Below the pieces are notes generated by a model, which was not told the DNA's origin, did no database searches, and saw nothing but the letters and a program-made list of their open reading frames with translations. A DNA stretch of 11,400 bases from a virus: the UHGV virus genome UHGV-1549577. One strand, 5' to 3'. Position numbers and translations under genes: made by a program. Each line of letters opens with the position of its first letter. The first letter of the stretch is position 1. Shown here in pieces: positions 496-6,294 of the stretch.

Positions 496-1059
496 GTGCT
501 GACAACGCAAAAACGAAAATTTGCGCTGGCGCTCATGTCCGGGAAAAACAAAACAGCGTCAGCCATTGCCGCCGGTTATTCGGCGAAGACCGCCAGGGTT
601 AAAGGCTCGCAGCTGGCAAAAGATCCGGAGGTGCTTGCGTTTATAGCCCGTAAACAATGCGAGACGGTGGAGGTGGATGAGGTTCCTGTTTACCGGCAGA
701 AAAAATCAGAGCAGGAGGATAAACCCCGTCGCCGTGAGGCGGCTGCAATACCACAGCCGGACGAAAACAATCCGGAGATGCCACCGTCCGCGGTGATGTC
801 TCCTGGTATTGAATATATGGAGGATGGTCTTCCCGATCCGGTGAAAGCCATGGGGCGGATCCTGGTGGAAAACCTCTGCATTGATCCGAAACTGGCACTG
901 GATGCGGCCTGGCGTCTGGCGCAGTTCACGCACCATAAAAAAGGGGATGCCGGTAAAAAATCGGCAAAAGGTGACGCGGCGAAAAAAGCGGCTAACCGTT
1001 TTGCGGTGCCACCACCACCACGACTGGTGGTGAATAACGATAATGAGGGCAACGGATGA
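496..1059 (+). CDS. Terminase small subunit
   Basis: N-terminus KRKFALALMSGKNKTASAIAAGYSAKTARVKGSQLAKDPEV matches the helix-turn-helix region of the small terminase family. It has a GTG start with GGGAGGAGG just upstream, and its stop overlaps the terL start (ATGA at 1056-1059). Confidence 0.8.
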   Translation: MLTTQKRKFALALMSGKNKTASAIAAGYSAKTARVKGSQLAKDPEVLAFIARKQCETVEVDEVPVYRQKKSEQEDKPRRREAAAIPQPDENNPEMPPSAVMSPGIEYMEDGLPDPVKAMGRILVENLCIDPKLALDAAWRLAQFTHHKKGDAGKKSAKGDAAKKAANRFAVPPPPRLVVNNDNEGNG

Positions 1060-2717
1060 TACCAGTGTGGAGCACGGCCTGCCCGGACTGGGCAGAGCGC
1101 CTGAAAAAGGGGCTGTCGATTATTCCGGCTCCGATTTATCCGGACCAGGCCGCACATGCCCTGGCGATTTTTAAACAACTGCGGATTGTGGATGCACCGG
1201 GGAGCCCGACGTTCGGGGAGTCCTGTGCACAGTGGGTGTTTGACCTGGTGGCGGCTCTGTTTGGCTCCTACGATGCGCAGACCGGTGTCCGCCATATCAA
1301 GGAAGTGTTCATTCTGATACCCAAAAAAAACAGCAAGTCCACGCTGGCCGCCGGGATCATGATGACGGCGCTGTTACTGAACTGGCGGCAGGCGGCGGGT
1401 TACACGATTCTGGCCCCGACTGTGGAGGTGGCAGCCAACGCCTTCAATCCTGCCAGGGATATGGTACGACGGGACGATGATCTGGATGACCTCTGTCAGG
1501 TGCAGACACATATCCGGACCATCACCCACCGGGTGACGGACACCACCCTTAAGGTGGTGGCAGCCGATCCGAATACGGTGTCCGGTATCAAGTCCGTGGG
1601 TACGCTGATTGATGAGTTATGGCTGTTTGGCAAACAGTACAAGGCGGAGGACATGTTACGTGAAGCCATAGGCGGCCTTGCCTCCCGCCCGGAAGGGTTT
1701 GTGGTGTATACGACCACCCAGTCGAATGAGCCGCCTGCCGGGGTGTTCAGGCAGAAACTGCAGTACGCCCGGGATGTGCGCGACGGCAAAATTAATGATC
1801 CGCACTTTCTGCCGGTGATATTTGAACACCCTCCTGAAATGGTGGAAAGCGGGGCTCACCTGCTGATGGAAAACCTCGCCATGGTCAATCCGAATCTCGG
1901 TTATTCGGTGGATGAGGCTTTTCTGTACCGGGAGTACCGTAAAGCCCGGGAGGCTGGTGAGGAAGCATTTCGTGGCTTCATGTCAAAACATGCCAATGTG
2001 GAAATTGGTCTTGCCCTGCGTTCTGACCGCTGGGCGGGGGCGGATTTCTGGGAGCAGCAGGGCAGGCGCGTCAGCCTGGACGATATCCTGCAGCGCGCTG
2101 ATGTGGTGACGGTGGGGATTGACGGCGGGGGCCTGGATGATCTGCTGGGAATGTACGTGATTGGCCGTGACAGGGAAACCCGCGAATGGCTGGGCTGGGG
2201 CCATGCCTGGGCGCATGAAACCGCGGTGGTCAGACGGAAGAGTGAGGCATCCCGTTTTCAGGATTTTGTGGCCTGTGGAGACATGACGATTGTCCGTCGG
2301 GTCGGGGATGACACGGCGGAAGTGGCGGAGTATGTGCGTCGTATTCATGAGGCTGAGTTACTGGAGCATATCGGTATTGACCCGTCAGGTGTGGGGCAGA
2401 TTCTGGATTCACTGGCGGAAGCCGGGATCCCCGACGGAATTGTTGTGGGGATAAGCCAGGGCTGGAAGCTGGGCGGGGCCATAAAAACCACCGAGCGCAA
2501 ACTGGCTGAGGGAGTACTGGTGCATGGTGGTCAGCCACTGATGGCCTGGTGCGTTGGCAATGCCCGGGTGGAGCCTAAAGGTAACGCTATCCTTATTACC
2601 AAACAGGCCAGCGGGCGGGGGAAAATTGACCCGCTGATGGCGCTCTTCAATGCGGTATCCCTGATGTCCCTGAATCCGGAGCCGAAAAAGAAAGAATATG
2701 CGGTTTTTTTCATATAA
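1056..2717 (+). CDS. Terminase large subunit (HK97-type, ATPase plus nuclease)
   Basis: 553 aa. It has a Walker A-like segment LIPKKNSKST, a Walker B-like LIDE, and C-terminal acidic motifs VGIDGGGLDD and GIDPSGVG typical of the RNase H-like nuclease domain. It is translationally coupled to terS. Confidence 0.9.
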   Translation: MIPVWSTACPDWAERLKKGLSIIPAPIYPDQAAHALAIFKQLRIVDAPGSPTFGESCAQWVFDLVAALFGSYDAQTGVRHIKEVFILIPKKNSKSTLAAGIMMTALLLNWRQAAGYTILAPTVEVAANAFNPARDMVRRDDDLDDLCQVQTHIRTITHRVTDTTLKVVAADPNTVSGIKSVGTLIDELWLFGKQYKAEDMLREAIGGLASRPEGFVVYTTTQSNEPPAGVFRQKLQYARDVRDGKINDPHFLPVIFEHPPEMVESGAHLLMENLAMVNPNLGYSVDEAFLYREYRKAREAGEEAFRGFMSKHANVEIGLALRSDRWAGADFWEQQGRRVSLDDILQRADVVTVGIDGGGLDDLLGMYVIGRDRETREWLGWGHAWAHETAVVRRKSEASRFQDFVACGDMTIVRRVGDDTAEVAEYVRRIHEAELLEHIGIDPSGVGQILDSLAEAGIPDGIVVGISQGWKLGGAIKTTERKLAEGVLVHGGQPLMAWCVGNARVEPKGNAILITKQASGRGKIDPLMALFNAVSLMSLNPEPKKKEYAVFFI

Positions 2718-2743
2718 CCCTGTTCACCCTGTAACCATCATGG

Positions 2744-2764
2744 ACCGCTGCGGCGGTTTTTTTA
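2744..2764 (+). terminator. Intrinsic-terminator-like hairpin plus T-run between terL and the capsid gene
   Basis: Stem ACCGC (2744-2748) pairs with GCGGT (2753-2757) around a 4-nt loop, followed by a run of T through 2764. Confidence 0.4.
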
Positions 2765-2780
2765 TTTTCAGGAGGCTGAT

Positions 2781-4718: not shown

Positions 4719-4732
4719 GTCTGATAAGGAGG

Positions 4733-4754
4733 ACGGGAGGTGTGCGCCTCCCGT
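4733..4754 (+). other. Stable stem-loop just after the capsid stop codon
   Basis: Stem ACGGGAGG (4733-4740) pairs with CCTCCCGT (4747-4754) around a 6-nt loop. There is no downstream T-run, so it is not a classic intrinsic terminator. Confidence 0.45.
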
Positions 4755-4762
4755 AACAGGTT

Positions 4763-4984
4763 ATGGCAAAGATCCGATATCTGCATGGTACGCATGATGC
4801 CCGGGTCGGGGATATCCGTGATGTGGCACAGCCGTGTGCGGAGGTGCTGGTTCGCCTGGGAAAGGCGGAGTACATCACGGTGCGACGTCCGGCAGGTCAG
4901 AAAAAGAAACGTGATGCGGAGCATGGCGAATGTGGAACCTTTTACGGCGAACCCGAAAAAACCAGAAATCAGGACGTGACGTAA
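4763..4984 (+). CDS. Hypothetical small basic protein (73 aa)
   Basis: ATG-initiated ORF in the 211-bp gap between the capsid and portal genes. Its translation is more protein-like than the overlapping frame at 4740-4979. It overlaps the portal start by 55 nt. I recognise no motif in it. Confidence 0.35.
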   Translation: MAKIRYLHGTHDARVGDIRDVAQPCAEVLVRLGKAEYITVRRPAGQKKKRDAEHGECGTFYGEPEKTRNQDVT

Positions 4985-6294
4985 GAGAGGCGGGCTGGAC
5001 CAGCCTGTTTCAGGCGGTGGCTGAGCCCTTTGCCGGTGCCTGGCAGCAGGGCGTGAAAACCGATCCGGAAAGTGTCCTCTCCTTTCATGCGGTGTTTTCG
5101 TGCATTTCGCTGATATCCCAGGATATCGCCAAAATGCGGCTGCGCCTGATGCAGACGGATACACAGGGGATCCGCCGTGAAAAACGGCAGGGGGATATTG
5201 CCCGTCTCTGTCGTCGTCCCAATGCACAGCAGAATCGTATCCAGTTTTTTGAACTGTGGCTGAACGCCAAACTGCGTCACGGCAATACGGTGGTGCTGAA
5301 AATCCGTAATGCCCGGGGGCAGATCAAAGAACTGCGTATTCTGGACTGGAGCCGGGTTGAACCTCTGGTGGCGGATGACGGCGAGGTGTTCTATCGCATC
5401 ACGCCGGACCGGAACTGTGGGATCACTGAGGCGGTGACGGTGCCTGCCCGGGAAGTGATCCACGACCGGTTTAACTGTTTTTTTCATCCGCTTATAGGAT
5501 TGCCGCCGGTGTATGCCGCCGGGCTGGCGGCCATGCAGGGGCATCATATTCAGGAAAATTCGACGTCTTTTTTCAGAAATGGCGGCAGGCCGTCCGGGGT
5601 GATTGAGATCCCCGGCAGTATTACGGAAGAAAATGCGAAAAAACTGAAGAGCAACTGGGACAGCGGGTATACAGGCGAAAATGCGGGTAAAACGGCCATT
5701 CTGAGCAACGGGGCAAAATACAACCCCACGACGTTTTCACCGGTGGATGCGCAGACGGTGGAACAACTGAAGATGACCGCTGAAATTGTCTGTTCGGTGT
5801 TCCGTGTCCCGGCCTACAAGATTGGCGTGGGACAACCGCCTTCCAGTGACAACGTGGAGGCGCTGGAGCAGCAGTATTATTCCCAGTGCCTGCAGACGCT
5901 GATTGAGTCCATTGAACTGTTACTGGATGAGGCGCTGGAAACGGGGGAAAACGAGAGTACAGAATTTGATGTCACCACGCTGCTGAGAATGGACAGTGAG
6001 CGGCGCATGAAAACGCTGGGGGATGCGGTGAAAAATACGCTTCTCACGCCCAATGAGGCCCGTAAACGGGAGAACCTGCCGCCTCTTGCGGGAGGTGACG
6101 CACTGTATCTTCAGCAGCAGAACTACAGTCTGGAGGCGCTGTCCCGTCGTGATGCCCGTGAAGATCCGTTCGCGTCGTCCGGGAAAAGAGTTTCAGCCGA
6201 GCTGCCTGACGGCGCATCTGACGGTAATAAGGCAATCAGTGAAACAGAGCATGATGTGGTGAAGGCGATGTTCAGGGGGATACTGAAAAAATGA
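4930..6294 (+). CDS. Portal protein (HK97 family)
   Basis: 454 aa. Segments FFRNGGRPSGVIEIPGSITEENAKKLKSNWDSGYTGENAGKTAILSNG and CSVFRVPAYKIGVG match the conserved portal core. GGAG lies about 10 nt before the ATG. Confidence 0.85.
   Translation: MWNLLRRTRKNQKSGRDVREAGWTSLFQAVAEPFAGAWQQGVKTDPESVLSFHAVFSCISLISQDIAKMRLRLMQTDTQGIRREKRQGDIARLCRRPNAQQNRIQFFELWLNAKLRHGNTVVLKIRNARGQIKELRILDWSRVEPLVADDGEVFYRITPDRNCGITEAVTVPAREVIHDRFNCFFHPLIGLPPVYAAGLAAMQGHHIQENSTSFFRNGGRPSGVIEIPGSITEENAKKLKSNWDSGYTGENAGKTAILSNGAKYNPTTFSPVDAQTVEQLKMTAEIVCSVFRVPAYKIGVGQPPSSDNVEALEQQYYSQCLQTLIESIELLLDEALETGENESTEFDVTTLLRMDSERRMKTLGDAVKNTLLTPNEARKRENLPPLAGGDALYLQQQNYSLEALSRRDAREDPFASSGKRVSAELPDGASDGNKAISETEHDVVKAMFRGILKK

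What the first reader, a model, noticed from the sequence alone, without database searches (positions are those of the whole stretch)
1056..6294. Non-canonical head gene order: terminase, capsid, portal
In HK97 and most relatives the order is terminase large subunit, portal, protease, capsid. Here the protease-capsid ORF directly follows terL and the portal gene comes after it, separated by a 211-bp gap that holds a stem-loop and a small ORF. This points to a distinct lineage of HK97-fold head modules, or to a past rearrangement. It also changes the order in which the assembly proteins are transcribed.
Basis: partly seen in the sequence, partly recalled or inferred. Interest (0 to 1): 0.45.

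Follow-up and report, generated by a model that had tools for sequence, protein, structure and literature searches.

The report
Capsid-before-portal head module, common prophage type
The terminase, capsid, portal gene order is real, but it is the normal layout of an old, very widespread family of phage head gene clusters, and this window is an ordinary, already sequenced E. coli Shiga-toxin-type prophage member of it.

Summary
The order is terS (496-1059), terL (1056-2717), a fused S78 protease/HK97-type capsid ORF (2781-4718), a 211-bp interval with a GC hairpin (4733-4754) and a 73-aa ORF (4763-4984), then an HK97-family portal (4930-6294).

The window is 93-96% identical to more than 90 deposited Stx-converting/BP-4795-like phages. 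It matches prophages in 1315 of 5426 complete E. coli genomes.

The order is a lineage trait, not a local rearrangement. It recurs in Pseudomonas PAJU2, Burkholderia and Moraxella phages, and in 79 of 80 species-level loci from several bacterial phyla. Capsid and portal proteins of these loci are monophyletic against five canonical-order phages. TerL is of two unrelated types, so it is swapped independently.

The hairpin after the capsid gene is present in 81% of loci against 2.7% of control windows. The small ORF has homologues in 55 of 83 loci, and a repeat-containing gene follows the portal in most loci.

One unexpected detail: 65 of 72 fused ORFs keep an in-frame ATG at the protease/capsid junction, and 61 of those have a Shine-Dalgarno-like motif, against 10.7% at other in-frame ATGs. 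This suggests a nested second start, which is untested.

Verdict: ordinary, low interest.

The parts
1..204 (+). 3' end of an HNH endonuclease gene upstream of the terminase genes
   Evidence: Pfam HNH PF01844, E 5e-7. The HNH endonuclease is annotated at the same place in NC_049941.
496..1059 (+). Terminase small subunit
   Evidence: PF03592 at E 1e-8 and phrog_641 at E 2e-68.
1056..2717 (+). Terminase large subunit, the 'window type'. It is at most 26% identical to the HK97/SfV type found in other members of the same head-module lineage.
   Evidence: PF03354 plus PF20441; phrog_9 and phrog_7622; two TerL types.
2742..2768 (+). Terminator-like hairpin plus T-run between terL and the capsid ORF, just upstream of the AGGAGG ribosome-binding site
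   Evidence: A GC hairpin followed by a T-rich tail is present in 22 of 40 loci with a comparable gap; in the Enterobacterales loci it reads GACCCGC-loop-GCGGGTT TTTTCGTTT.
2781..4718 (+). Fused ORF: S78 prohead protease, coiled-coil delta/scaffold-like segment, HK97-fold major capsid protein (645 aa, GTG start)
   Evidence: PF04586 at aa 48-153, PF05065 at aa 386-635, TIGR01554 at aa 204-584, phrog_617. Aligns with the split protease and capsid genes of Burkholderia and Moraxella phages.
3342..3359 (+). Candidate internal ribosome-binding site (AAGGA, 3342-3346) and in-frame ATG (3357-3359) at the protease/capsid junction. This codon aligns with the start codon of the separate capsid genes in split relatives.
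   Evidence: An ATG is conserved in 65 of 72 fused loci, with an SD-like motif in 61 of 65, against 10.7% at other in-frame ATGs. Use of this start is inferred, not shown.
4733..4754 (+). GC-rich hairpin (9-bp stem, no T-run) 15 nt after the capsid stop codon
   Evidence: A hairpin with at least 6 GC pairs lies within 60 nt of the capsid stop in 81% of 84 loci, against 2.7% of random windows. Putative terminators are annotated at the same place in HK97 and SfV.
4763..4984 (+). Small conserved ORF (73 aa) of unknown function between capsid and portal genes. Its last 55 nt overlap the portal ORF.
   Evidence: phrog_829 at E 4e-38. Homologues lie in the same interval in 55 of 83 loci. Longer relatives match Pfam DUF7210 weakly, below threshold. 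The AlphaFold model was uninformative, pLDDT 54.
4930..6294 (+). Portal protein, HK97 family
   Evidence: PF04860 at E 1e-81 and TIGR01537 at E 1e-106. Matches solved HK97-family portals 9lbn, 8cez and 6tba. N-terminus is conserved.
6291..7190 (+). Gene after the portal (299 aa): N-terminal long helix, 27/54-aa repeats of variable copy number, C-terminal beta domain with a CBM5/12-like module. Mis-annotated as 'portal protein' in many records.
   Evidence: The structural model has low confidence.
7187..8657 (+). Head-tail connector genes: Ad1 (7187-7513), Hc1 (7523-7873), gp10-like (7849-8316), tail terminator (8313-8657)
   Evidence: PF05135, PF05521, PF04883 and PF11367; PHROGs.
8724..11400 (+). 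Lambda-like tail genes: major tail protein with Ig domain (8724-9440), chaperones G (9446-9820) and T (9844-10125) with slippery A_AAA_AAG at 9811-9817, and tape measure protein (10173 to the window end)

Best explanation
This is the late (head and tail) operon of a lambdoid E. coli prophage of the Stx-converting/BP-4795/Sawaravirus type.

Its head genes belong to an old, widespread sub-lineage of HK97-type modules with a fixed layout: terS, terL, (terminator-like hairpin), protease(-)capsid, GC hairpin, small DUF7210-like gene, portal, repeat/CBM gene, Ad1, Hc1. Compared with HK97, the block [protease, capsid, hairpin] and the portal gene have changed places. This happened once, at or before the root of the lineage, and it is independent of whether protease and capsid are fused. 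TerL is a separately exchangeable cassette.

How it works is inferred. The operon is read as one late transcript. The protease is brought into the procapsid by being covalently joined to the N-terminal, inward-facing end of a capsid subunit, and it then cuts itself and the delta segment away. A conserved internal ribosome-binding site and ATG at the junction probably also yields capsid protein without protease, so that only some subunits carry the enzyme. The hairpin after the capsid gene probably stabilises or partly ends the capsid message. The portal (12 copies per virion by general knowledge of tailed phages) and the connector genes lie behind it and would then be made in smaller amounts than the several hundred capsid subunits.
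For: Identity: the window is 93-96% identical over 6.9 kb to 95 phage records, and 1315 of 5426 E. coli genomes hold a match.

Lineage: the same order is annotated in PAJU2, vB_FKKS2 and Mcat6 and occurs in 79 of 80 genome loci selected only by capsid similarity. Portal and capsid proteins are monophyletic in 50 of 50 bootstraps. Within-clade identity is at least 34% (portal) and 29% (capsid), against at most 30% and 21% to canonical-order phages. The closest portals outside the clade all sit in the canonical order.

TerL mosaicism: there are two TerL types. FKKS2 TerL is 64% identical to HK97 gp2, and L026 TerL is 72% identical to SfV TerL.

Fusion is independent of order: split genes occur with this order, and a fusion occurs with the canonical order in Anseraureola.

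Hairpin: 81% of loci against 2.7% of control windows.

Internal start: 65 of 72 fused loci have the ATG, and 61 of 65 have an SD-like motif, against 10.7% background. The same Met is the start of the split capsid genes.

Read-through: an assembled 6.1-kb transcript covering terS, terL, capsid, the small ORF and the portal of a relative is reported in PMC8156552.
Against: No expression, proteomic or structural data for this module were found. No close solved structure of the capsid protein exists.

The window's own hairpin has no T-run and is unremarkable alone (z = -1.9). Terminator-like sites in the window as a whole are not above chance, 12 found against 9.9 expected.

HK97 and SfV also have a hairpin after the capsid gene, so the hairpin is not special to this order.

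The 5' start of the fused ORF also has a good SD and is usually ATG, so the ratio of the two products cannot be guessed.

The junction ATG could be a relic of formerly separate genes.

The trees are neighbour-joining with only five outgroups, and portal-capsid distance congruence is moderate (rho 0.48).
Confidence: 0.85

Rival explanations
1. The order is a frozen accident. The lineage is real, but placing the portal after the capsid gene has no effect on expression or assembly. The hairpin is simply the usual post-capsid element inherited from an HK97-like ancestor.
For: HK97 and SfV have a putative terminator in the same place relative to the capsid gene. Both gene orders are evolutionarily successful. 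A transcript spanning the whole region exists.
Against: The order did not revert in 79 of 80 loci across several phyla, even though terL was exchanged and genes were inserted between capsid and portal. This conservation is equally expected from the low rate of viable rearrangements, so it is weak evidence.
Confidence: 0.4
2. The fused ORF gives only the full-length polyprotein, so every capsid subunit carries its own protease. The junction ATG and SD are a relic of separate genes.
For: The 5' start has a strong SD in nearly all loci. Split and fused versions coexist in the clade, so fusion and fission happen repeatedly.
Against: The ATG and the SD-encoding codons are kept in 61 of 72 fused loci, from enterobacteria to alphaproteobacteria, inside an otherwise variable linker. 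This compares with 10.7% at other in-frame ATGs.
Confidence: 0.3
3. A recent local rearrangement, an assembly artefact or a decaying prophage produced the order in this window.
For: None found. Many E. coli prophages are defective (general knowledge).
Against: All ORFs are intact. The layout is identical in 91 phage records and 451 genomes that cover at least 80% of the query and in distant phyla.
Confidence: 0.01
4. Mis-assignment: the ORF at 4930-6294 is not a portal, or the ORF at 1056-2717 is a portal rather than a terminase.
For: None.
Against: PF04860 at E 1e-81, TIGR01537 at E 1e-106, and matches to solved HK97-family portals. The TerL ATPase and nuclease domains both score above Pfam cut-offs.
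Confidence: 0.01

Closest known systems
Stx-converting / BP-4795-like lambdoid phages of E. coli (for example BP-4795, YYZ-2008, Stx2a_WGPS2 of genus Sawaravirus, vB_EcoS-569R3)
   Same: 93-96% nucleotide identity over the whole head region. Capsid protein is up to 99.8% identical. Gene order is identical, including the small ORF and the gene after the portal.
   Different: Only allelic differences. The gene after the portal has fewer 54-aa repeats here (299 aa against 407 aa in WGPS2), and the best match to any complete E. coli genome is 96.5%.
Pseudomonas phage PAJU2, whose gp03 is annotated 'prohead protease fused capsid protein'
   Same: Same layout: terS, terL, fusion, small genes, portal, gene after portal, Ad1, Hc1. 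The capsid protein is 48% identical and the portal 38%.
   Different: Its TerL is of the other (HK97/SfV) type, 18% identical to the window's. There are two small genes between capsid and portal.
Phage HK97, the reference for this fold and module
   Same: S78 protease, HK97-family capsid, portal, Ad1, Hc1 and gp10-like genes; an HNH endonuclease next to the terminase genes; a hairpin after the capsid gene.
   Different: The order is terL, portal, protease, capsid, and protease and capsid are separate genes. There is no small gene between capsid and portal and no gene after the portal. Identity is only 24% (portal) and 17% (capsid).
[quoted passage not shown]
   Same: Protease and capsid are encoded in one ORF.
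   Different: The order is canonical (terminase, portal, fusion, adaptor). This shows that fusion and order are separate traits. No detectable relationship beyond the family level was examined.
Nested or tripartite head genes: lambda C/Nu3 and the Salmonella Gifsy-2 protease-scaffold-capsid gene
   Same: They follow the same logic as the proposed internal start: one reading frame gives a long product carrying the protease and a shorter product lacking it, or one polyprotein that is later cut.
   Different: By my recollection those use ClpP/S49-type proteases and have lambda-type portals placed upstream. Here the protease is S78, and Pfam gave no Clp-family hit. Nothing about product sizes has been measured for this module.

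Membership tests
HK97-type head module | HK97-family major capsid protein (PF05065 / TIGR01554) | tested here: met
   PF05065 at 52.5 bits (cut-off 24.2); TIGR01554 at 77.3 bits (cut-off 27.5).
HK97-type head module | S78 (HK97 gp4-like) prohead protease | tested here: met
   PF04586 at 34.1 bits (cut-off 21). TIGR01543 at 46.6 bits is below its cut-off of 59.
HK97-type head module | HK97-family portal (PF04860 / TIGR01537) | tested here: met
   274.6 bits and 356.5 bits, far above the cut-offs.
HK97-type head module | Gene order terL, portal, protease, capsid | tested here: not met
   The order here is terL, protease-capsid, portal. HK97, SfV and three other phages show the canonical order.
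Capsid-before-portal sub-lineage (PAJU2 / BP-4795 / Mcat6 type; my working name) | Capsid and portal proteins fall inside the clade, and the portal lies downstream of the capsid gene on the same strand | tested here: met
Capsid-before-portal sub-lineage | GC hairpin directly after the capsid stop, and a small DUF7210-like ORF before the portal | tested here: met
   Hairpin at 4733-4754 and ORF at 4763-4984. Across loci the hairpin is present in 81% and the ORF in 55 of 83.
Stx-converting/BP-4795-like lambdoid prophage late region | Near-identical nucleotide sequence and collinear gene content | tested here: met
   93-96% identity over 100% of 6.9 kb in 91 records, with the same annotated genes.
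NCBIfam NF045541 (prohead protease/major capsid protein fusion, scaf_prot_MCP2) | Score at or above the curated cut-off of 525 bits | tested here: not met
   53.1 bits, and only the protease part aligns. This is a different fusion family.
Gifsy-2-like tripartite capsid gene | ClpP-type protease domain at the N-terminus | tested here: not met
   Pfam finds Peptidase_S78 and no Clp-family domain. The defining feature itself is recalled from the literature, not read here.
Nested-gene expression (long and short product from one frame) | Two translation products observed | not testable with these tools
   Only the conserved ATG and SD are shown.

The most novel reading that the evidence does not exclude
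The fused protease-capsid ORF may really be a nested gene pair. A conserved internal Shine-Dalgarno motif and ATG (3342-3359 here) would produce capsid protein on its own. The full-length product would be a minority subunit that carries the protease into the shell by covalent attachment. Together with the conserved hairpin, the DUF7210-like small protein and the repeat/CBM protein after the portal, this would define a phylum-spanning head-assembly scheme. No paper describing it as such was found in the searches run here.
Probability: 0.5. Interest if true: 0.4.

Novelty: already known. Interest (0 to 1): 0.2.

Why it matters
For the window itself it matters little. It is one more copy of one of the commonest prophage head modules in pathogenic E. 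coli, and the order can be read from existing annotation.

The comparative result has modest use in three ways:
- Gene order is a stable marker of this head-module lineage, while terL is not. This helps prophage classification and annotation. The gene after the portal is widely mislabelled 'portal protein'.
- The module offers a natural comparison with HK97 on how protease delivery and capsid:portal ratios are set.
- The likely internal start would change how the product of this very common 'major capsid protein' gene is interpreted.

Tried and rejected
- Literature: searches for an explicit description of this order or of internal initiation in protease-capsid fusions found nothing relevant. 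The BiPBO1 and ANT_H14 papers concern canonical-order phages.
- Gene after the portal: the structure prediction gave a low-confidence model (pLDDT 56). Foldseek gave no overall match, only local similarity to chitin-binding modules. A profile search of PDB sequences gave nothing credible.
- Small ORF: the structure prediction was uninformative (pLDDT 54). The word-indexed protein search found only close E. coli copies.
- Hairpin statistic: a whole-segment folding-energy comparison after the capsid gene was too blunt (median z = -1.2). It was replaced by a perfect-stem count.
- Weak 5' start: I tested whether the fused ORF generally has a weak 5' start codon, which would favour the internal start. 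It does not; the window's GTG is an exception.
- Frameshift: a -1 frameshift on the A-run at 4956-4961, joining the small ORF to the portal frame, was considered. I did not pursue it, because relatives end the small ORF at the portal ATG and the heptamer is poor in that frame.
- Tandem repeats: a DNA-level scan found nothing in the gene after the portal. Its repeats are visible only at protein level.
- A first tree script timed out.
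Full report
**What is in the window.** All long ORFs lie on the + strand. Profile searches identify them as follows:
- the 3' end of an HNH endonuclease gene (1-204)
- terS (496-1059) and terL (1056-2717)
- a 645-aa ORF (2781-4718) with an S78 prohead protease domain at aa 48-153 and an HK97-family capsid domain at aa 386-635
- a 73-aa ORF (4763-4984)
- an HK97-family portal (4930-6294)
- a 299-aa gene (6291-7190)
- the connector genes Ad1, Hc1 and gp10-like, and the tail terminator
- a lambda-like major tail protein with an Ig domain, the G and T chaperones, and a tape measure protein

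The only correction is that the small ORF fills most of the interval and overlaps the portal ORF by 55 nt. The portal start MWN... is shared with distant relatives, so it is the true start.

**Where it comes from.** The head region is 93-96% identical over its full length to 91 deposited phage records. Almost all are Stx1a/Stx2-converting phages of E. coli O157 and relatives such as vB_EcoS-569R3 and Lys8385Vzw. The capsid protein is 99.5% identical to that of BP-4795. Matches occur in 1315 of 5426 complete E. coli genomes, with up to 18 places per genome. In the RefSeq record NC_049941 (genus Sawaravirus) the annotation already reads terS, terL, major capsid protein, hypothetical protein, portal protein, 'portal protein', Ad1 and so on. 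The object and its order are therefore already in the databases.

**Is the order a lineage trait?** A tblastn search with the fused protein finds more distant relatives (35-48% identity) in Pseudomonas PAJU2, Burkholderia, Ralstonia and Moraxella phages. Their annotation shows the same order:
- PAJU2: terS, terL, 'prohead protease fused capsid protein', two small genes, portal, a 334-aa gene, Ad1, Hc1.
- Burkholderia vB_FKKS2 and Moraxella Mcat6: the same, but with protease and capsid as separate genes.

I then searched one genome per GTDB species using patterns from a capsid alignment. This selection is blind to gene order. It returned 80 loci. They come from Enterobacterales, Pseudomonas, Beta- and Alphaproteobacteria, and a few MAGs labelled Flavobacteriaceae, Tissierellaceae, Hydrogenedentota, Gemmatimonadetes and Vicinamibacterales. 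Mapping small HMMs of each gene family onto six-frame ORFs showed the portal downstream of the capsid gene, on the same strand, in 79 of 80 loci. It was never found between terL and the protease. Counting all 85 loci examined, including the window and the annotated phages, protease and capsid are fused in 73 and split or frame-broken in 12.

**Phylogeny.** Five canonical-order phages served as outgroups: HK97, SfV, NatCom_17901, phi1605 and Mcat13. The last three carry the closest portals outside the group, and all have terL, portal, protease, capsid. In neighbour-joining trees the portal and capsid proteins of the capsid-before-portal loci are monophyletic in 50 of 50 bootstraps. There is an identity gap: at least 34% and 29% within the clade, against at most 30% and 21% to the outgroups.

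TerL behaves differently. It falls into two types that are at most 26% identical. One type is the window's (44 loci). The other clusters with HK97 and SfV TerL (24 loci): FKKS2 TerL is 64% identical to HK97 gp2, and L026 TerL is 72% identical to SfV TerL. So the block from the protease to the portal is inherited as a unit, and terL is swapped in and out at the terL|protease boundary.

Fusion and order are separate traits. Split genes occur with this order. A protease-capsid fusion occurs with the canonical order in Microbacterium phage Anseraureola.

**The hairpin.** On its own, the window's hairpin is unremarkable (z = -1.9, no T-run). Terminator-like sites in the window are not above chance. 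Across loci the picture is clear. A perfect hairpin with at least 6 GC pairs lies within 60 nt of the capsid stop in 81% of 84 loci, against 2.7% of random windows from the same loci. The sequences differ completely between lineages, and the median distance from the stop is 14 nt. Only 17-41% have a T-rich tail.

HK97 and SfV records annotate a putative terminator at the same place relative to their capsid genes. The hairpin is therefore an old companion of the capsid gene that moved with it. A second, terminator-like hairpin with a T-run lies between terL and the fused ORF (2742-2768). It is conserved in 22 of 40 loci with a comparable gap. An assembled 6.1-kb transcript of a relative spans terS through the portal (PMC8156552), so read-through occurs.

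**The small ORF and the gene after the portal.** Iterative search restricted to ORFs lying between capsid and portal finds homologues of the 73-aa protein in 55 of 83 loci. They share an N-terminal motif of about 40 aa and have variable, often basic, tails. Longer members match Pfam DUF7210 below threshold. Its function is unknown and the structure model was uninformative.

The 299-aa gene has relatives after the portal in most loci. It consists of a long N-terminal helix, 27/54-aa repeats whose number varies (proteins of 245, 299, 353 and 402 to 407 aa), and a conserved C-terminal beta domain. The C-terminus resembles CBM5/12 chitin-binding modules, but the evidence is weak: a sub-threshold Pfam hit and local Foldseek hits on a low-confidence model. 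An exposed fibre or decoration role is a guess.

**An unexpected detail in the fused ORF.** The Met at aa 193 (ATG 3357) aligns exactly with the start codon of the separate capsid genes of Burkholderia and Moraxella phages. It is preceded by AAGGA. Among 72 fused loci, 65 keep an in-frame ATG within a few codons of this point, and 61 of those have an SD-like motif 4-16 nt upstream. In alphaproteobacterial loci this is often a full AAGGAGG encoded by a conserved Lys-Glu-Gly. The rate at the other 938 in-frame ATGs of the same ORFs is 10.7%.

This strongly suggests a second, internal translation start. It would make capsid protein without the protease, leaving the full-length product as the vehicle that carries the protease into the shell. 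It is an inference. The 5' start also has a good SD, so the product ratio is unknown, and a relic of formerly separate genes is not excluded.

**How it most likely works.**
- Shown: gene identities, order, conservation, the hairpins, and the junction ATG with its SD.
- Inferred: a single late transcript; covalent delivery of the protease at the inward-facing N-terminus of a capsid subunit, followed by self-removal together with the coiled-coil delta segment; an additional protease-free capsid product from the internal start; and lower output of the portal and connector genes because they lie behind the post-capsid hairpin.
- Main rival: the order is a neutral frozen accident. I cannot exclude this and rate it at about 0.4.

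**Verdict.** The arrangement is the standard layout of a very common, already sequenced prophage family, so the finding is ordinary. Its residual interest lies in the breadth of the lineage, the mosaic behaviour of terL, and the probable nested start in the capsid gene.

Noticed in passing
window 3342-3359: Inside the fused protease-capsid ORF there is an in-frame ATG preceded by AAGGA, at exactly the point where split relatives start their capsid gene. The ATG plus an SD-like motif is kept in 61 of 72 fused loci, against 10.7% at other in-frame ATGs. This suggests a nested second start.
   Followed up: yes
window 6291-7190: The gene after the portal has protein-level 27/54-aa repeats whose copy number differs among relatives (245, 299, 353 and 402 to 407 aa), and a C-terminal CBM5/12-like module. 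Public records widely label it 'portal protein' or 'gp6-like connector'. Its function is unknown.
   Followed up: partly
window 4923-4984: All three forward frames are open here. The small ORF runs 55 nt into the portal ORF, whereas in Enterobacter-type relatives it ends at the portal ATG. Some E. coli database proteins are frame-shifted variants of this stretch. An A6 run lies at 4956-4961.
   Followed up: partly
window 2742-2768: A terminator-like hairpin with a T-run lies between terL and the capsid ORF. A GC hairpin with a T-rich tail is present in 22 of 40 loci with a similar gap, and in the Enterobacterales loci it reads GACCCGC-loop-GCGGGTT TTTTCGTTT. It sits at the boundary where terL types are exchanged.
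   Followed up: partly
window 9811-9820: A slippery heptamer A_AAA_AAG lies immediately before the TAG of the tail chaperone G gene, with the T reading frame open in -1. This is the standard G/GT programmed frameshift of lambda-like tails.
   Followed up: partly
L030 10058-13612; L060 10567-15958: In a few distant members the capsid-portal interval has taken up extra genes. One locus has a 1184-aa protein with He_PIG, BNR and fn3 domains. Another has an HNH homing endonuclease, a phosphoribosyltransferase-like gene and a family-2 glycosyltransferase. This interval is an insertion hotspot.
   Followed up: partly
window 1-204: The 3' end of an HNH endonuclease gene lies upstream of terS, as in HK97-like cos phages.
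   Followed up: partly
whole window: G+C is 53-61%, well above the roughly 50% typical of E. coli (general knowledge), although the module is resident in over a thousand E. coli genomes.
   Followed up: no
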